From positions 294,670 to 358,669 of the forward strand of contig CBDCOP010000006.1 in NCBI GenBank assembly GCA_965219845.1: a DNA stretch of 64,000 nucleotides, written 5' to 3'. Positions within the stretch are counted from its first letter, which is position 1, and the number at the start of each line of letters is the position of its first letter. Positions 29,178-62,565 of this stretch are shown here, one piece after another. The translations under genes and the position numbers were made by a program. The notes below the pieces were generated by a model, which did not search any database, was not told the origin of the DNA, and saw only the letters and a program-made list of their open reading frames with translations. The DNA is from Dehalococcoidia bacterium. GTDB lineage: Bacteria; Chloroflexota; Dehalococcoidia; Lucifugimonadales; Australimonadaceae.

Positions 29178-30485
29178 ATGGTCGAGGAGCAGCAACAAGC
29201 GCCGGACGCGGAGCGGGGGGGGCGGGGGCGCGCTGAAGCGCGTCCCGCCTCCGCGGGAACGGCGGGTCCCGGACGTCGCCGCTGGCCCCGGACATTCGAC
29301 GCGCTCGCGGTGCCCGCGTACCGCAACTACTTCGTCGCGATGGTGTTCTTCTTGGGCGCGATGCAGGCGACGATGCTGGCGCGCCCCATCCTGGCCTACG
29401 ACCTGGCCGACCGCGCCCCCATCGTGCTGGGCCTCGTCCTCGCGGCGAACAACGCTCCGTCGCTCGTGCTGTCGCCGTTCGCGGGAGCGCTTGCGGACCG
29501 GGTCTCCATGCGGAACATCCTCATCATCGCGGCGGGGCTCATGTCCGCATTCGCCGGCATCACGGCGATCGGCGTCGTGCTGGACGTGCTGGAGTGGTGG
29601 CACGTCATGGTCATCGGCGTGTTCCAGGGCTCGGTGATGGTGTTCATCACGCCGGCGCGCCGCGCAATCATCGGCGGGCTCGTGGACGAGCGGCTGCTGC
29701 TGAATGCCACGGGCCTCCACACGATGGCGCATAACGCGACCCGGACGCTGCTGCCGCTGGTGGCCGGGCTCATCTTTGCGCGGGCGGGGCCGGAGTGGGC
29801 CTACCTGCTCGTGGTGGTGCTGTACGTCCTGGCGCTGGGCCTGCTGTTCTTCACGCCCGTGCGGGGCGTGGCGGCCCCGCGGCGGCGAAACCGCAGCGGC
29901 TCGACGCTGGAGGGCTTCAGGTACGCGTGGCAGGTGCCCGAGATCCGCACGCTGCTGCTCGTGGGGTTTGTCGTCACCGTGTTCGGACAGCCGTTCCAGA
30001 ACCTGCTGCCCCTTGCCCAGGACTTTCTGCAGATAGAGGCGGACGGCGTGGGCCTGTTGTTCACGTTCTACGGGCTCGGGTCGCTGCTGGGCTCGACGAC
30101 GGCCGCGTCGCTGGGGGACTTCCAGCGGAAGGGCCTGCTGTTGGTGGGCTTCTTCATGCTGTTCGGCGCCGGCGTCGTGGCGTTCGCGGCGTCGAGCTGG
30201 TACGCGCTCTCGCTGCTGCTCATGCTGCCTGCAGGGATGGGACACTCCGGGAGGATAGTGGTGCACCTCGCCATGCTGCAGACCTACTCGGAACCGGAGA
30301 TGCGCGGGCGCGTGCAGGCTCTGAACGCGATGATGGGCGGGCTGATGCCGCTGGCCATCCTGGGCATTGCGGGGCTGGCGGACCTGTACGGGGGCCGCGT
30401 TGCGCTCGGGGCGACGGGCGGCGTCATCGTGGCCTACGGCCTGTGGGAGACGCTGTTCTCAAAGACGCTGCGCAGGCTCCGGTAG
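29178..30485 (+). CDS. MFS transporter
   Basis: 435-aa ORF. Charged N-terminal tail, then ~12 hydrophobic segments. The FRNYF-type start (YRNYFVAMVFFLG) is typical of the EntS/MFS_3 group. Confidence 0.8.
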   Translation: MVEEQQQAPDAERGGRGRAEARPASAGTAGPGRRRWPRTFDALAVPAYRNYFVAMVFFLGAMQATMLARPILAYDLADRAPIVLGLVLAANNAPSLVLSPFAGALADRVSMRNILIIAAGLMSAFAGITAIGVVLDVLEWWHVMVIGVFQGSVMVFITPARRAIIGGLVDERLLLNATGLHTMAHNATRTLLPLVAGLIFARAGPEWAYLLVVVLYVLALGLLFFTPVRGVAAPRRRNRSGSTLEGFRYAWQVPEIRTLLLVGFVVTVFGQPFQNLLPLAQDFLQIEADGVGLLFTFYGLGSLLGSTTAASLGDFQRKGLLLVGFFMLFGAGVVAFAASSWYALSLLLMLPAGMGHSGRIVVHLAMLQTYSEPEMRGRVQALNAMMGGLMPLAILGIAGLADLYGGRVALGATGGVIVAYGLWETLFSKTLRRLR

Positions 30486-31904: not shown

Positions 31905-32165
31905 CGCAACCCATCCACCCGCCCCCGAGTACCCTCACCCTCGCCCTCTTGTAGGGAGCTTTGCGTAACGCCATCGCATCCCCCAAACCCCGCGATTCAC
32001 CCCCATCCTAACCTTCCCCCATCGAGGGGGAAGGGATCAAATAGCCCCGCCCCGCATCCCCTCTCACGGTTATGCAAAGGTCTCCTTGTAGGGAGAGGGG
32101 ATCGAATACACCGGCTCACGCAGGGCCCTCATCCTGGCCCTCTCCCTCAGGAGAGGGAATCAAGC
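31905..32165. repeat. REP cluster (A, B, A, A' units)
   Basis: Contains an intact REP-B unit (GATTCACCCCCATCCTAACCTTCCCCCATCGAGGGGGAAGGGATCAA, 31995..32040) followed by REP-A and REP-A' (CCCTCTCCCTCAGGAGAGGGA). Confidence 0.9.
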
Positions 32166-38815: not shown

Positions 38816-38914
38816 TGCATGTAGTTGCTCCTTGACTCCCCACGCCTGTTCAGCCTTCACTGCATCTTGCGCGCTATAGGTCTCCCCGAGAGGATGTCGC
38901 GCGCTAAAGCACGG

Positions 38915-39107
38915 GCTTCGCTCAACATGACAACTCCCCTACTCCCCCACTCCCACAGGGCCCTCACCCTAACCCTCTCCCTCAGGAGAGGGGACCGAGC
39001 CCTCACCCCCTCGCCCCCGCAGTACCCTCACCCTCGCCCTCTCCCCTTGTAGAGACCTTTGCATAACCCCATCGCACACCCCAGACCCCGCCGATTCACC
39101 CCCATCC
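38915..39107. repeat. REP cluster (A', A, left half of a B unit)
   Basis: Ends ...GATTCACCCCCATCC, which is the left half of REP-B, cut by the IS110-family element. Confidence 0.9.
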
Positions 39108-39281
39108 TTGTATGGTGATGGAAGGCGGGGCAGGCCGCCCCATCCTGGGTCCCAAAAGACCGCAGGTTAGCTTGACCGCCCCGCCCCCATTCACCCGCCC
39201 TACCGGCTGCCCGAACAGTTGCCTGAGCCAACGAGCTCGTATCACAAGGCTGGGCACGGCAGGGCGCAAGGAGGATACCGC
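39108..39281 (+). ncRNA. Candidate bridge (guide) RNA of the IS110-family element
   Basis: CCCCATCCT (39138..39146) equals the left flank. GGTTAG (39165..39170) is the reverse complement of right flank CTAACC. A small hairpin GGTC-ccaaaa-GACC lies between them. ACAGTTGC (39215..39222) equals the element's right end (40230..40237). Confidence 0.45.
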
Positions 39282-40220
39282 ATGGACTCGACCCTCTGCA
39301 TCGGCATCGACGTCTCTCAGGACTGGCTCGACCTGACCGCTCACCCAGCCGGACAACCCCGGCGCTTCAAGACCACCCCTGACGGCCTCCGCTCTCTTGT
39401 CGAGCACTGCCGCGACGCTCAGCCCCGCTTGATCGCCTTCGAGGCCTCCGGCGGCTACGAACGCCCGCTCGCGGACACGCTCATCCAAGCGCAACTCCCC
39501 TTCGTCATCCTCAACCCCCGCAACGTTCGCTACCACGCCCGCTCCACCGGCATCCTGGCCAAGACGGACCGGATCGACGCTGCCGTCATCGCTCAGTTCG
39601 TCTACCGCAACGAGGTGCAGCCGAAGCCTGCGCCGTCGCCCGCGGAGCAGGCCGTGCGCGATCTGGCCACTCACCGCAACCAACTCGTCGATGCCCGGAC
39701 GCGCGCGATGCACGAGGGCCGGCACTTCACAGGGACGAGCTCGGCCAGCACCCAGCGCCATATCGCCTTCCTCGAACGGGAGATTGCTGCCATGGAGCAG
39801 GAGCTGCGGGAGGTCATCGCCCAGGACGTCTTCTTGCGCGAGCGCTCGGAGCGGCTGCGGAGCGTTCCCGGCGTCGGGGAGACGCTGGCGGCGGTGCTGC
39901 TCGGGGCCATGCCGGAACTGGGGCGCCTGAACCGGGGCGCCGTCGGCAAGCTGGCAGGTCTGGCCCCGCACGCCCGCGACAGCGGGAAGCGCGAGGGGAA
40001 GCGCTTCTGCTGGGGTGGGCGTGCGAACGTGCGGAGGGTGCTCTACATGCCTATGCTCGCGGCCATCCAGCACAACCCCGTGATCCGCGCCTTCTACCAG
40101 CGGCTGGTTGGCCAGGGCAAACCGAAGAAGGTGGCGCTGGTAGCCTGCATGCGCAAGATGCTGACGATACTGAACGCCATCCTACGGGAGGGGACCACCT
40201 GGAACCCACACATCGCTTGA
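39282..40220 (+). CDS. IS110-family transposase/recombinase (DEDD N-domain + C-terminal Ser domain)
   Basis: ATG at 39282 follows AAGGAGGA. The start CIGIDVSQDWLD and the blocks AFEASGGYE, KTDRIDA, VPGVGETLAAVLL and AGLAPHARDSGK are classic IS110 family features. 312 aa. Confidence 0.9.
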   Translation: MDSTLCIGIDVSQDWLDLTAHPAGQPRRFKTTPDGLRSLVEHCRDAQPRLIAFEASGGYERPLADTLIQAQLPFVILNPRNVRYHARSTGILAKTDRIDAAVIAQFVYRNEVQPKPAPSPAEQAVRDLATHRNQLVDARTRAMHEGRHFTGTSSASTQRHIAFLEREIAAMEQELREVIAQDVFLRERSERLRSVPGVGETLAAVLLGAMPELGRLNRGAVGKLAGLAPHARDSGKREGKRFCWGGRANVRRVLYMPMLAAIQHNPVIRAFYQRLVGQGKPKKVALVACMRKMLTILNAILREGTTWNPHIA

Positions 40221-40237
40221 CCCGCAATCACAGTTGC

Positions 40238-40329
40238 TAACCTTCCCCCATCGAGGGGGAAGGGATCAAATAACCCCGCACCGCATCTCCCTCACGGTTA
40301 TGTAAAGGTCCCCTTGTAGGGAGAGGGGA
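40238..40329. repeat. REP cluster (right half of the B unit, then an A unit)
   Basis: Starts TAACCTTCCCCCATCGAGGGGGAAGGGATCAAATA; ends CCCCTTGTAGGGAGAGGGGATCAA. Confidence 0.9.
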
Positions 40330-41193
40330 TCAATTCCCGAGATACGCCTCGCGGGCGGAGCGGTAGTCGGCGGTCCCGGTGGCGATGCCCATCATCTCCG
40401 GAGTCGGCTCGCGGCCGGCGAGGTCGGCGGAGGGCGCGCCGGACGCCTGGTGCGCGAGCGATTCGTAGACGGTGCGGACGGTCTGCGTGAACGTGCCGTG
40501 TCCGCGCAGCACGATCTTCACACCGTAGCGGGCGAGGATGTCGGTCGTGAGCGCCCCCGGCGTGCTGCCGAGCATGAAGGGCAGGCCCGTGAGGGCGCGC
40601 GCGGCCTGCAGGTGCGCCTCCTCCCGCACGCCCATGAGGAAGATGCCGTCCACGCCGGTCTCCGCATAGGCGGCGACGCGCACGAGCGCATCGTCGAGGC
40701 TGGTGGCGTTGATGGCGTGGGTGCGCCCCAGGATGACGGTCGCGTCGTCCTGCCGGGCGGCGACGGCGGCGCGCAGCTTGCCGGTCATCTCGTCGACCGG
40801 GATGAGCTCCTCCTTGCCGCCTGAGCCGTACCGGCTGGGAAGCGACGTGTCCTCGATGGTCATGCCGCTCGCGCCCGCATCCTCCAGTTCGCGGACGGTG
40901 CGCATGACGTTCAGCGCATTGCCGTAGCCGTTGTCGGCGTCGATCATCTGGCTGATGTCGGATGCGCGGGTGATGCGGCGCACCTGGTCGGCGAGCTCGG
41001 TGAGGGTCATCACGGCGACGTCCGGCGCTCCGAGGATGACGGCGCTCGCTATTGAGCCGCCGAGCATGCCGACTTCGAATCCGAGGGCGTAGGCGGTGCG
41101 CGACGAGACGGGGTCGAACACGGATGCGGGACGGATGCAGCCCTCGCGCTGGAGGTAGTCGCGCAGGCGTCGGCGGCGGTCGGTGACGTGCAT
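40330..41193 (-). CDS. Isocitrate lyase / PEP mutase superfamily enzyme (oxaloacetate decarboxylase / methylisocitrate lyase-like)
   Basis: 287-aa ORF. Family patterns DADNGYGNA and GMTIEDTSLP. Lacks the EDKxxxxxNS signature of true PEP mutases. Confidence 0.7.
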   Translation of the reverse strand: MHVTDRRRRLRDYLQREGCIRPASVFDPVSSRTAYALGFEVGMLGGSIASAVILGAPDVAVMTLTELADQVRRITRASDISQMIDADNGYGNALNVMRTVRELEDAGASGMTIEDTSLPSRYGSGGKEELIPVDEMTGKLRAAVAARQDDATVILGRTHAINATSLDDALVRVAAYAETGVDGIFLMGVREEAHLQAARALTGLPFMLGSTPGALTTDILARYGVKIVLRGHGTFTQTVRTVYESLAHQASGAPSADLAGREPTPEMMGIATGTADYRSAREAYLGN

Positions 41194-41269: not shown

Positions 41270-41475
41270 CCATCGCAGGAACGACGGGAGGGACGCCGGG
41301 CCTCCCCAGCCCCCGGTTCACCCTCACCCTAACCCTCTCCACTCAAGGGAGAGGGGATCAGACGGGAATGACGAAAGGGACACCGGGCCGGTTCACCCCC
41401 ATCCTGGCCTTCCCCCATCGAGGGGGAAGGGACCAAGCAGGGGCGAGGTTCCTGCCTCCGCAGGAACGACGAGGT
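41270..41475. repeat. REP cluster (D-half, A', C-half, B, D)
   Basis: Contains CCCTCTCCACTCAAGGGAGAGGGGATC, TTCACCCCCATCCTGGCCTTCCCCCATCGAGGGGGAAGGGACCAAGC and AGGTTCCTGCCTCCGCAGGAACGACG. Confidence 0.9.
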
Positions 41476-62477: not shown

Positions 62478-62565
62478 CATTCACCCCCATCCTAACCTTC
62501 CCCCATCAAGGGGGAAGGGATCAACCAGCCCCGTTCCACCCCTGGCCGACGCTATGCAAGGGTTT
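62478..62565. repeat. REP cluster (B unit, A-flank remnant)
   Basis: ATTCACCCCCATCCTAACCTTCCCCCATCAAGGGGGAAGGGATCAACC; an unoccupied IS110-type target site sits at 62492|62493. Confidence 0.9.

What the first reader, a model, noticed from the sequence alone, without database searches (positions are those of the whole stretch)
39108..40237. IS110-family element inserted precisely in a REP unit, with a leader that looks like a bridge RNA programmed for that REP
A 1,130-bp insertion splits a REP-B unit. The joined flanks (...GATTCACCCCCATCC|TAACCTTCCCCCATCGAGGGGG...) are colinear over more than 130 bp with the uninterrupted copy at 31975..32110. There is no target duplication, only a CT dinucleotide at both junctions (39107-39108 and 40237-40238), as described for IS621-type IS110 elements. 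The 174-nt non-coding leader upstream of the recombinase gene contains three matching blocks. CCCCATCCT (39138..39146) is identical to the left flank including CT. GGTTAG (39165..39170) is the reverse complement of the right flank CTAACC, so the two blocks address opposite strands on either side of the core. ACAGTTGC (39215..39222) is identical to the element's own right end (40230..40237). A small hairpin (GGTC-ccaaaa-GACC) lies between the first two blocks. This is the layout reported in 2024 for IS110 bridge RNAs, with a target-binding loop followed by a donor-binding loop. The window holds further REP-B units: exact unoccupied target sites at 32008|32009 and 62492|62493, and sequence variants near 41400 and 46340. 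The element and its guide appear intact amid many decayed mobile elements.
Basis: partly seen in the sequence, partly recalled or inferred. Interest (0 to 1): 0.7.

Follow-up and report, generated by a model that had tools for sequence, protein, structure and literature searches.

The report
IS110 element with REP-targeting bridge RNA
This is an intact 1,130-bp jumping gene of the IS110/IS621 type, inserted precisely into a repeated palindromic sequence and carrying a guide ("bridge") RNA whose loops spell out both that target and the element's own ends; it is a clean textbook example of a mechanism described in 2024, not a new one.

Summary
A 1,130-bp element (39109..40238) splits a REP unit. 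There is no target duplication, only a shared CT core. It encodes a 312-aa DEDD/Ser IS110 recombinase with all five catalytic residues.

The 173-nt leader folds into two stem-loops with internal loops. It also has handshake positions and a promoter (TTGACC-18-TATGGT) that exists only across a circle junction.

The decisive evidence is comparative. In four close lineages with the same ends, the leader differs almost only in the LTG and RTG blocks, and these track each lineage's own flanks. Across 31-34 more distant relatives the guides match their own flanks far better than permuted pairings (0/5000). The fold shows compensatory changes in 29 of 34 pairs.

Compared with IS621 the element lacks the 5' stem-loop, as ISPpu10 does. 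REP targeting by IS110 elements and bridge RNAs are both established, so this is a new member of a known kind. Activity itself is untested.

The parts
39100..39108 (+). Left target half: LT CCCCATC plus core CT, part of the REP-B unit
   Evidence: Identical to the LTG at 39138-39146. The same 9-mer occurs in the empty sites at 32001-32009 and 62485-62493.
39109..40238 (+). IS110-group insertion sequence, 1,130 bp. The boundary is ambiguous by the shared CT, so it is equally 39107-40236.
   Evidence: The joined flanks are colinear over about 200 bp with the empty site near 31912-32108. There is no target duplication and there are no terminal inverted repeats.
39111..39116 (+). TATGGT, the -10 half of the promoter that forms only across the circle junction
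   Evidence: Direct reading. On a circle, TTGACC (40217-40222), an 18-nt spacer and TATGGT line up. The same layout (TTGCAG-17-TATTAT) is seen in E. coli IS621. No sigma-70-like site was found in the linear context.
39122..39267 (+). Predicted bridge RNA, about 145 nt. The 5' end is inferred from the -10 hexamer and the 3' end is not defined.
   Evidence: Match to covariance model R1, 171.6 bits. This match is expected, because the window is one of the sequences the model was built from. It is the only strong match in the window. The MFE fold gives two stem-loops with internal loops.
39124..39185 (+). Target-binding loop module: basal stem, internal loop and apical hairpin
   Evidence: The basal helix shows compensatory changes in 10 of 10 pairs across 44 relatives.
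39138..39146 (+). Left target guide (LTG), CCCCAUCCU. It has the same sense as top-strand LT plus core, so it pairs with the bottom strand.
   Evidence: 9/9 match to 39100-39108. Reached in 35 of 20,000 shuffles. The block varies between lineages along with their left flanks.
39148..39161 (+). Apical hairpin of the target-binding loop, GGUC-CCAAAA-GACC
   Evidence: Three of its four pairs covary in relatives.
39164..39170 (+). Right target guide (RTG), AGGUUAG, the reverse complement of core plus RT (CTAACCT)
   Evidence: 7/7 match. Reached in 125 of 20,000 shuffles. It covaries with the right flank in all four close lineages and across the family.
39171..39172 (+). Handshake guide of the target-binding loop (CU). 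The C is complementary to donor position 7 (G40236).
   Evidence: The position is defined by analogy with IS621 A81/U82 (PMC11208158). Its first base is complementary to donor position 7 in 41 of 43 distinct relatives: C:G in 37 and U:A in 4.
39197..39265 (+). Donor-binding loop module: two-part basal stem, internal loop and apical hairpin
   Evidence: Helices 4-6 show compensatory changes in 15 of 18 pairs.
39215..39222 (+). Left donor guide (LDG), ACAGUUGC. It equals the last 7 nt of the right end plus core C. The next base, C39223, does not match core T.
   Evidence: 8-nt identity to 40230-40237. Reached in 37 of 20,000 shuffles. IS621 likewise has an 8-nt LDG that stops at core C (A123-C130; PMC11208158; sequence).
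39241..39248 (+). Right donor guide (RDG), AU-C-ACAAG. It pairs with top-strand CTTGTAT (39107-39113) with C39243 bulged.
   Evidence: Direct reading. The contiguous 5-nt part was found. IS621 has the same discontiguous pattern, AU-UU-GCAAG (PMC11208158). The block is aligned in relatives.
39249..39250 (+). Handshake guide of the donor-binding loop (GC). The G is complementary to target position 7 (C39106).
   Evidence: Defined by analogy with IS621 G166/U167 (PMC11208158). Direct reading.
39268..39274 (+). Shine-Dalgarno sequence AAGGAGG, 7 nt before the ATG
   Evidence: Direct reading.
39282..40220 (+). Recombinase gene, 312 aa
   Evidence: Pfam PF01548 DEDD_Tnp_IS110 (9.1e-22) and PF02371 Transposase_20 (3.5e-19). 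It is 31% identical to the IS621 transposase. D10, E54, D96, D99 and S234 align with IS621 D11, E60, D102, D105 and S241.
40217..40222 (+). TTGACC, the -35 half of the circle-junction promoter. It overlaps the stop codon TGA at 40218-40220.
   Evidence: Direct reading. TTGAC lies at the same distance from the core in the close lineages and in several distant relatives.
40230..40238 (+). Left donor: right-end terminus ACAGTTG plus core CT
   Evidence: ACAGTTGCT is conserved across most relatives.
40239..40263 (+). Right target half (AACCT) running into the REP-B hairpin CCTTCCCCC-ATCGA-GGGGGAAGG (40241-40263)
   Evidence: The 9-bp hairpin appears in the DNA fold of the empty site. There are five copies of the hairpin in the window, all on the + strand.
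32001..32014 (+). Exact unoccupied target CCCCATC-CT-AACCT
62485..62498 (+). Exact unoccupied target CCCCATC-CT-AACCT

Best explanation
The feature is an intact IS110-group (IS621-like) insertion sequence that chooses its insertion site with a bridge RNA encoded in its 173-nt left end.

**Inferred mechanism, by homology with IS621.**
1. The element excises as a circle. Joining the right end to the left end creates a promoter: TTGACC from the right end, an 18-nt spacer and TATGGT from the left end.
2. That promoter transcribes a bridge RNA of about 145 nt, and probably also the recombinase mRNA.
3. The RNA's first internal loop binds the REP-B target. [quoted passage not shown] 4. The second internal loop binds the circle junction. 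[quoted passage not shown] 5. A tetramer of the DEDD/Ser recombinase exchanges strands at the CT core. The handshake bases (C39171 with donor G7, G39249 with target C7) stabilise the exchanged top strands.
6. Insertion leaves no duplication and splits the promoter, which quiets the resident copy.

**Shown here:** the precise insertion; the protein family and catalytic residues; the fold; all four guide-DNA complementarities; and their covariation with flanks in relatives.

**Inferred:** transcription, RNA-protein binding, circle formation and present-day activity.
For: **Insertion.** It is precise, with CT at both junctions and no duplication.

**Protein.** The gene product has the IS110 DEDD domain and the Transposase_20 domain. 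All five IS621 catalytic residues are conserved.

**Guides in the window.** The leader contains core-anchored matches of 9, 7 and 8 nt in the correct order and strand sense. Each is rare in 20,000 shuffles (35, 125 and 37 occurrences).

**Four close lineages.** The window element and lineages at 81%, 74% and 72% amino-acid identity share ends TGTATGGTG...ATCACAGTTGCT. Their leaders differ almost only in the two target-guide blocks. The RTG matches each lineage's own right flank:
- window: AGGTTAG / CTAACCT
- 81% lineage: GCGTAAG / CTTACGC
- 74% lineage: CAGGTGAG / CTCACCTG
- 72% lineage: GGGAGAG / CTCTCCC

The LTG matches 6-9 of 9 positions.

**Copies within one genome.** Thirteen copies with one leader in one MAG all sit in the same target. 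A second lineage with different guides, in the same genome, sits in a different target (L012).

**Family-wide guide-flank matching.**
- RTG against own right flank, 33 distinct elements: mean 4.18 consecutive matches beyond the core, against 0.55 for permuted pairings (0/5000).
- LTG against own left flank, 31 distinct elements: 4.68 against 2.37 (0/5000).
- The handshake base is complementary to donor position 7 in 41 of 43 elements, with C:G to U:A covariation.

**Structure.** 94.9% of cells pair, against 67% in shuffles and 34-49% with slid partners. Twenty-nine of 34 pairs show compensatory changes.

**Parallels with IS621.** The donor ends are near-identical (ACAGTTG-CT-TGTAT against ACAGTAT-CT-TGTAT). 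Both have an 8-nt LDG that stops at core C, a discontiguous RDG and a split junction promoter (PMC11208158; PMC11208160).
Against: - No expression or activity data exist for this element.
- No second copy was found: there is only one model hit in the window, the protein is not on record elsewhere, and a metagenome scan gave only coincidental hits.
- Two exact target sites within 64 kb remain empty. The element may therefore be quiescent or poorly active.
- My covariance model does not reach IS621 itself, and Rfam has no bridge-RNA family. Homology of the RNA to IS621 rests on shared layout and donor motifs, not on a model score.
- The structure counts were made on an alignment fitted to the model, which favours the structure.
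- A possible outer helix, GGTGA (39114-39118) with TCACC (39192-39196), shows one compensatory change in the 81% lineage. It would require a transcript start upstream of the one predicted from the junction promoter. This is unresolved.
Confidence: 0.9

Rival explanations
1. The element is a structurally intact but currently immobile resident copy. Its identity is as described, but it no longer transposes, for example because of a silent promoter, host factors or subtle protein defects.
For: There is a single copy in 64 kb, and two perfect empty targets lie nearby. No promoter-like site exists in the integrated context. No identical protein or element was found elsewhere.
Against: The reading frame is open and has a strong Shine-Dalgarno sequence. 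All five catalytic residues are present. The four guides and the junction promoter halves are intact, with LTG 9/9 and RTG 7/7. The LTG match is better than in several multi-copy relatives. Low copy number is normal for IS110 elements, whose promoter forms only on the circle.
Confidence: 0.25
2. The leader is mainly a regulatory 5' UTR or a sense/antisense sRNA pair that controls transposase expression. This is how ISPpu9 small RNAs and the Xanthomonas sX15/asX7 pair were originally read. On this view the protein alone sets target choice, and the matches to the flanks are incidental.
For: Rfam sX15 matches the minus strand of the leader below threshold (38.6 bits against a gathering score of 55). 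sX15 and asX7 were detected as complementary sRNAs (PMC3300014). The leader lies directly upstream of the ribosome-binding site.
Against: A purely regulatory role cannot explain why the only variable leader blocks change in step with each lineage's flanks. Nor can it explain why the handshake base tracks donor position 7. A regulatory role in addition to guiding is not excluded.
Confidence: 0.03
3. The short matches between leader and flanks are chance similarities in C-rich, low-complexity sequence.
For: Both the leader and the REP are C-rich. The permuted left-flank control has a high baseline of 2.37.
Against: The shuffle frequencies are 35, 125 and 37 in 20,000, and the relaxed joint event occurred twice. 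No permuted pairing reached the observed values (0/5000 on both sides). The positions fall exactly in the two internal loops of a covarying fold.
Confidence: 0.01

Closest known systems
IS621 of Escherichia coli (IS110 group), the bridge RNA prototype (Durrant et al. 2024, PMC11208160; Hiraizumi et al. 2024, PMC11208158)
   Same: - DEDD plus Ser recombinase, 31% identity, with all catalytic residues aligned.
- CT core, no duplication, and insertion into a REP.
- Bridge RNA in the left end, with a target-binding loop followed by a donor-binding loop.
- A 9-nt LTG of top-strand sense, and an RTG that is the reverse complement of core plus RT.
- An 8-nt LDG that stops at core C, and a discontiguous RDG.
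- Handshake positions after the RTG and the RDG.
- Near-identical donor ends, ACAGTnn-CT-TGTAT.
- A -35 hexamer in the right end and a -10 hexamer in the left end.
   Different: - No 5' stem-loop: 29 nt from the core to the LTG, against 62 nt in IS621.
- The predicted RNA is about 145 nt, against 177 nt.
- The element is 1,130 bp with an 18-bp right end whose -35 hexamer overlaps the stop codon.
- The RTG is 7 nt, against 4 in IS621.
- The RDG has one bulged base, against two.
- The RDG pairs A:T at donor position 12, where IS621 has G:T.
- The target REP and the host are different: high G+C, with closest relatives in Chloroflexota (Dehalococcoidia-labelled) MAGs.
- My model of this clade does not detect the IS621 leader.
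ISPpu10 (and ISPpu9) of Pseudomonas putida, REP-targeting IS110 elements (bioRxiv 10.64898/2026.03.19.712850; PMC12288879)
   Same: - REP-specific insertion.
- A bridge RNA without the IS621-type 5' stem-loop.
- A promoter reconstituted on the circle.
- A hairpin in the target next to the insertion point.
   Different: In ISPpu10 the target hairpin lies on the left side and includes the LT. Here the 9-bp REP hairpin lies on the right, starts 2 nt after the core and overlaps RT positions 12-14. Whether the hairpin is required here is unknown.
Thirteen-copy relative in Dehalococcoidia MAG OZ252105.1 (L001-L011, L016, L017), and relatives L012 and L013-L015
   Same: 81%, 74% and 72% amino-acid identity. 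They have the same termini, the same RNA scaffold and the same donor guides.
   Different: Their target guides and targets differ: TTTGCCCCT / GCGTAAG, TTAGCCCCT / CAGGTGAG and TCTCCCCCT / GGGAGAG. They are natural reprogrammed versions of one scaffold.
Rfam RF02234 sX15 (Xanthomonadaceae sRNA; Schmidtke et al. 2012, PMC3300014)
   Same: Full-length sub-threshold matches lie exactly over the bridge RNA in the window and in relatives L072, L066 and L001.
   Different: The matches are on the opposite strand and below the gathering score, so this is not a membership claim. The family was described as an sRNA with an antisense partner (asX7), not as a guide RNA.

Membership tests
IS110 family, IS110 group (IS621-like bridge recombinase element) | Recombinase with an N-terminal DEDD RuvC-like domain (PF01548) and a C-terminal Tnp domain (PF02371) | tested here: met
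   PF01548 scores 77.9 bits (cut-off 29). PF02371 scores 69.4 bits (cut-off 21.3).
IS110 family, IS110 group (IS621-like bridge recombinase element) | Catalytic D, E, D, D and the conserved serine nucleophile | tested here: met
   D10, E54, D96, D99 and S234 align with IS621 D11, E60, D102, D105 and S241 in BLASTP. The residue numbers come from PMC11208158.
IS110 family, IS110 group (IS621-like bridge recombinase element) | No terminal inverted repeats, no target-site duplication, and a shared core dinucleotide (CT) at both junctions | tested here: met
   CT at 39107-39108 and 40237-40238, and the empty site is restored exactly.
IS110 family, IS110 group (IS621-like bridge recombinase element) | Long non-coding left end and short right end, with the RNA encoded in the left end | tested here: met
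   The left end is 173 nt and the right end is 18 nt.
IS110 family, IS110 group (IS621-like bridge recombinase element) | Non-coding RNA with two stem-loops, each carrying a large internal loop (target-binding loop, then donor-binding loop) | tested here: met
   MFE fold. In 44 relatives 94.9% of cells pair and 29 of 34 pairs are compensatory (the alignment was fitted to the model).
IS110 family, IS110 group (IS621-like bridge recombinase element) | [quoted passage not shown] | tested here: met
   9/9 and 7/7 in the window. Covariation is seen in four close lineages and family-wide in permutation tests (0/5000).
IS110 family, IS110 group (IS621-like bridge recombinase element) | LDG and RDG pair with the right-end and left-end termini of the circle junction | tested here: met
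   The LDG has 8-nt identity to 40230-40237. The RDG AU-C-ACAAG is complementary to CTTGTAT with one bulge (direct reading). The right end located by the LDG lies next to an RTG-matching flank in most relatives.
IS110 family, IS110 group (IS621-like bridge recombinase element) | Handshake guides complementary to position 7 of the non-cognate DNA | tested here: met
   C39171 pairs with donor G7 and G39249 pairs with target C7. The first holds in 41 of 43 relatives, with C:G and U:A covariation.
IS110 family, IS110 group (IS621-like bridge recombinase element) | Promoter reconstituted across the right-end/left-end junction of the circle | tested here: inconclusive
   The sequence fits: TTGACC-18-TATGGT on the junction, none in the linear context, and TTGAC is conserved in the close lineages. 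The host promoter consensus and the transcription start are unknown.
IS110 family, IS110 group (IS621-like bridge recombinase element) | The RNA is expressed, binds the recombinase and directs recombination | not testable with these tools
   This needs RNA-seq, binding assays and recombination assays.
IS110 family, IS110 group (IS621-like bridge recombinase element) | 5' stem-loop preceding the target-binding loop, as in the IS621 bridge RNA (not a family-defining feature) | tested here: not met
   Only 29 nt separate the core from the LTG, and the predicted start is at about 39122. ISPpu10 also lacks it (bioRxiv 10.64898/2026.03.19.712850).
REP (repetitive extragenic palindromic) element as the target | A short palindromic unit repeated many times in intergenic DNA | tested here: met
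   The 23-nt hairpin occurs 5 times in the window against 0 expected. The DNA fold gives a 9-bp stem. The insertion lies between convergent coding regions. The genome-wide count is unknown.
Rfam RF02234 sX15 | Score at or above the gathering threshold, on the annotated strand | tested here: not met
   38.6 bits against a gathering score of 55, and on the minus strand.

The most novel reading that the evidence does not exclude
The REP hairpin immediately right of the core may be a required structural part of target recognition in this clade, rather than merely a marker of where targets are abundant. It starts 2 nt after the CT, and its 5' arm overlaps the RT. This would be a right-side counterpart of the left-side 'structure gate' reported for ISPpu10. 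It would make this compact scaffold (312-aa enzyme, RNA of about 145 nt, no 5' stem-loop) a distinct, naturally multi-programmed bridge system from Chloroflexota.
Probability: 0.15. Interest if true: 0.45.

Novelty: new member of a known kind. Interest (0 to 1): 0.3.

Why it matters
It is a very clean natural illustration of bridge-RNA programming. One scaffold appears in four closely related lineages, and only the target-guide blocks have been rewritten to match four different repeat targets. Two of those versions coexist in one genome.

It adds a compact orthologue from a poorly sampled phylum: a 1,130-bp element with a 312-aa recombinase and an RNA of about 145 nt without the 5' stem-loop. 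That could interest groups mining bridge recombinases.

For annotating this window, it explains the insertion, predicts which REP-B units are insertion-competent (32001-32014 and 62485-62498), and shows that the element is not decayed.

It does not change what is known about the mechanism.

Tried and rejected
- **Rfam.** No bridge-RNA family matched. The only notable hit was sX15, on the opposite strand and below threshold. I treat it as a side observation.
- **Exact-protein look-up** for other copies of this element found nothing on record.
- **Metagenome scan** with the 19-mer spanning the LTG gave 36 hits. All were coincidental matches in unrelated sequence and none was a bridge RNA.
- **Covariance model against IS621.** The model built from this clade gave no match at E up to 1 on the E. 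coli IS621 locus. The IS621 comparison was therefore made by direct reading against the published residue numbering.
- **RNAalifold on the four close lineages** paired part of the LDG with upstream sequence. I rejected that in favour of the IS621-like donor loop, which is also the single-sequence MFE and is supported by covariation in 44 relatives.
- **RNAalifold pairing of LTG CCUG with RTG CAGG** is specific to the window's target sequence and is broken in the other lineages, so I rejected it.
- **Locating left ends with an exact 5-mer from the RDG** failed where position 12 is a G:T wobble. Allowing the wobble fixed this.
- **The long antisense ORF** at 39096-40073 was judged a typical high-G+C artefact opposite a real gene.
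- **Promoter scan of the integrated context** found nothing. This is consistent with a junction-only promoter but is not proof.
Full report
**1. The observation**

Reading 38900-40500 shows the left junction ...GATTCACCCCCATCCT|TGTATGGTGATGG and the right junction ...CAATCACAGTTGCT|AACCTTCCCCCATCGAGGGGGAAGG. CT lies at 39107-39108 and at 40237-40238.

Deleting 1,130 bp (39109-40238, or equally 39107-40236) gives a sequence that aligns over about 200 bp with the uninterrupted unit at about 31912-32108, differing only by scattered substitutions and two small gaps. There is no target duplication and there are no terminal inverted repeats.

The three blocks reported in the leader are present as described:
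- CCCCATCCT at 39138-39146;
- GGTTAG, which extends to AGGTTAG at 39164-39170;
- ACAGTTGC at 39215-39222.

In 20,000 dinucleotide-preserving shuffles of the leader, core-anchored matches of these lengths occurred 35, 125 and 37 times. The relaxed joint event (left at least 7 nt and right at least 6 nt) occurred twice.

The 14-mer target CCCCATCCTAACCT occurs intact at 32001-32014 and 62485-62498. It occurs with two mismatches at 29384, 41397 and 46335. That is 5 matches against 0.26 expected.

**2. The gene**

The ORF at 39282-40220 is preceded by AAGGAGG, 7 nt upstream. It encodes 312 aa with Pfam DEDD_Tnp_IS110 (9.1e-22) and Transposase_20 (3.5e-19).

I retrieved a genuine IS621 copy from an E. 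coli chromosome. The two proteins are 31% identical over their full length. D10, E54, D96, D99 and S234 align with the IS621 catalytic residues D11, E60, D102, D105 and S241 (residue roles from PMC11208158).

**3. The leader as a bridge RNA**

The published model (PMC11208160; PMC11208158) has these features:
- The LTG has the sense of the top-strand left target plus core, and pairs with the bottom strand.
- The RTG is the reverse complement of core plus right target.
- The LDG and RDG do the same for the circle junction.
- In IS621 the LDG is 8 nt and stops at core C.
- The IS621 RDG is discontiguous, with two flipped bases.
- Two handshake bases follow each right guide.

The window's leader fits point by point:

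| Feature | Coordinates | Sequence | Partner |
|---|---|---|---|
| LTG | 39138-39146 | CCCCAUCCU | left flank plus core, 9/9 |
| Apical hairpin | 39148-39161 | GGUC-CCAAAA-GACC | none |
| RTG | 39164-39170 | AGGUUAG | CTAACCT, 7/7 |
| Handshake | 39171 | C | donor G7 |
| LDG | 39215-39222 | ACAGUUGC | right end, 8 nt; next base C does not match core T (IS621 has a non-matching A131 here) |
| RDG | 39241-39248 | AU-C-ACAAG | CTTGTAT, one bulge |
| Handshake | 39249 | G | target C7 |

The MFE fold of the leader places the two target guides on opposite sides of one internal loop, and the two donor guides on opposite sides of a second.

The donor ends are almost those of IS621: ACAGTTG-CT-TGTAT against ACAGTAT-CT-TGTAT.

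On a circle, TTGACC (40217-40222, overlapping the stop codon), an 18-nt spacer and TATGGT (39111-39116) form a sigma-70-like promoter. IS621 has TTGCAG-17-TATTAT in the same positions. The integrated context has no such site.

The leader has no room for the IS621 5' stem-loop. Only 29 nt separate the core from the LTG, against 62 nt in IS621. ISPpu10 is reported to lack that stem-loop too (bioRxiv 10.64898/2026.03.19.712850).

**4. Comparative test**

A scan of one genome per species returned 80 loci.

*Close lineages.* The closest relatives are 13 full copies at 81% amino-acid identity in Dehalococcoidia MAG OZ252105.1, one copy at 74% in the same genome (L012), and three copies at 72% in OZ242299.1. 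All share the termini TGTATGGTG...ATCACAGTTGCT. In a 186-column alignment of the four leaders, most of the variation falls in the LTG and RTG blocks, with the rest in the apical loops and the 3' tail.

Each RTG is the reverse complement of its own right flank, and complementarity stops at the same place:

| Lineage | RTG | Right flank |
|---|---|---|
| window | AGGTTAG | CT\|AACCT |
| 81% | GCGTAAG | CT\|TACGC |
| 74% | CAGGTGAG | CT\|CACCTG |
| 72% | GGGAGAG | CT\|CTCCC |

The LTGs match 6-9 of 9 positions. Some of the mismatches are U:G-compatible.

The 13 copies with one leader all sit in one repeated target (...AAC[C/T]TGCCCCT|...|TACGCCATAGCCCC...). One of them, L001, lies in a different context that keeps GCCCCT|TACGCC.

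*Covariance model.* I built a model from the four leaders. It gave full-length, same-strand matches immediately upstream of the recombinase gene in nearly all of the more distant relatives (36-47% identity). It gave only one strong match in the window.

*Independent location of the ends.* In those relatives I located the right end from the LDG alone. The next bases then matched the RTG in most elements.

*Permutation tests*:
- RTG, 33 distinct elements: mean 4.18 consecutive matches beyond the core, against 0.55 for permuted pairings (0/5000).
- LTG, 31 distinct elements: 4.68 against 2.37 (0/5000).

*Handshake.* The handshake base after the RTG is complementary to donor position 7 in 41 of 43 elements. 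It switches from C to U where the donor has A instead of G.

*Structure.* On 44 matches, 94.9% of cells pair, against 67.2% in shuffles and 34-49% with slid partners. Twenty-nine of 34 pairs show changes on both sides. The caveat is that the alignment was fitted to the model.

**5. The target**

The REP-B unit has a 9-bp hairpin, CCTTCCCCC-ATCGA-GGGGGAAGG, that starts two bases after the core. It is present five times in the window, always on the + strand.

Among 34 distinct relatives, 9 have a perfect hairpin of at least 6 bp starting within 8 nt to the right of the core. Shuffles give 1.5 on average and at most 7. In five of the nine, the hairpin arm begins at the core C.

Hairpin-adjacent targeting is therefore recurrent in the family but not universal. 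Whether the hairpin matters mechanistically here is open.

**6. What is known, and novelty**

Several points are already established:
- IS110 elements target REPs. Choi et al. 2003 showed this for IS621, and Tobes and Pareja 2006 generalised it; both are cited in PMC11208160.
- The bridge-RNA mechanism was described in 2024.
- Bridge RNAs were predicted in about 86% of catalogued IS110-group elements (PMC11208160).
- A REP-targeting element without the 5' stem-loop has been described (ISPpu10).

This element passes every sequence-level membership test I could apply. It is a new member of a known kind, notable mainly for its compactness and for the tidy natural reprogramming series among its relatives.

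**7. Limits**

- No expression or activity data exist.
- No second copy of this exact element was found.
- Two perfect targets nearby are empty.
- The transcript ends are predictions.
- A possible outer helix, 39114-39118 with 39192-39196, would need an earlier transcription start. It is unresolved.

Noticed in passing
window 39111-39268 (minus strand); also L072 127-290, L066 1297-1471 and L001 1327-1493: Rfam RF02234 (sX15, a Xanthomonadaceae sRNA) gives full-length matches below threshold (38.6-44.1 bits, gathering score 55). They lie exactly over the bridge RNA but on the opposite strand. sX15 was described with a complementary partner, asX7, and with 10 homologues in Stenotrophomonas maltophilia (PMC3300014). 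The Rfam family is therefore probably the reverse complement of an IS110 bridge RNA.
   Followed up: partly
L081 (E. coli NZ_CP063349.1) 1577-1648, followed by the full IS621 from 1649: A 72-bp partial left end of IS621 (TGTATT... through its LTG ATCGGGCCT) sits directly in front of a complete IS621. It looks as if a copy recombined at the DNA that encodes the element's own LTG. The five best E. coli hits were all split into two pieces in the same way. This may relate to the 'half-match recombination' reported in bioRxiv 10.64898/2026.08.31.748434.
   Followed up: no
L012, against L001-L011, L016 and L017 (all from MAG OZ252105.1): Two related elements with the same ends but different target guides coexist in one genome. 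Each sits in its own target.
   Followed up: partly
window 40227-40231 and 39115-39119: There is a 5-bp subterminal inverted repeat, ATCAC / GTGAT, flanking the donor sequence. IS110-group elements are reported to have a short 2-3-bp subterminal repeat (PMC11208160). The left copy could also pair with TCACC at 39192-39196 in the RNA, and one compensatory change occurs in the 81% lineage.
   Followed up: no
window 38960-38994 and 39024-39058 (minus strand): A second type of REP hairpin (CCCTCTCC-CTCA-GGAGAGGG and its neighbours) gives weak Rfam matches to whalefall-1 RNA (24 and 12.7 bits, gathering score 37). These are probably just palindrome similarity. The 72% relatives (L013-L015) target a similar hairpin, CTCTCCC-GCT-GGGAGAG.
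   Followed up: no
window 29384-29397 and 41397-41410: These REP-B variants read CCCCATCCT|GGCCT. The left half is a perfect LTG match, but the two bases after the core differ from the RTG. They share 11 nt (CCCCATCCTGG) with the DNA that encodes the LTG in the leader (39138-39148). They would be candidates for half-matched off-target events.
   Followed up: no
window 39096-40073 (minus strand): A 325-aa ORF runs antisense to the recombinase gene. It is probably a high-G+C artefact.
   Followed up: no
L018 (OZ252105.1): This is a truncated relative that matches only residues 73-312 of the recombinase. It has no recognisable leader upstream and looks like a decayed copy.
   Followed up: no
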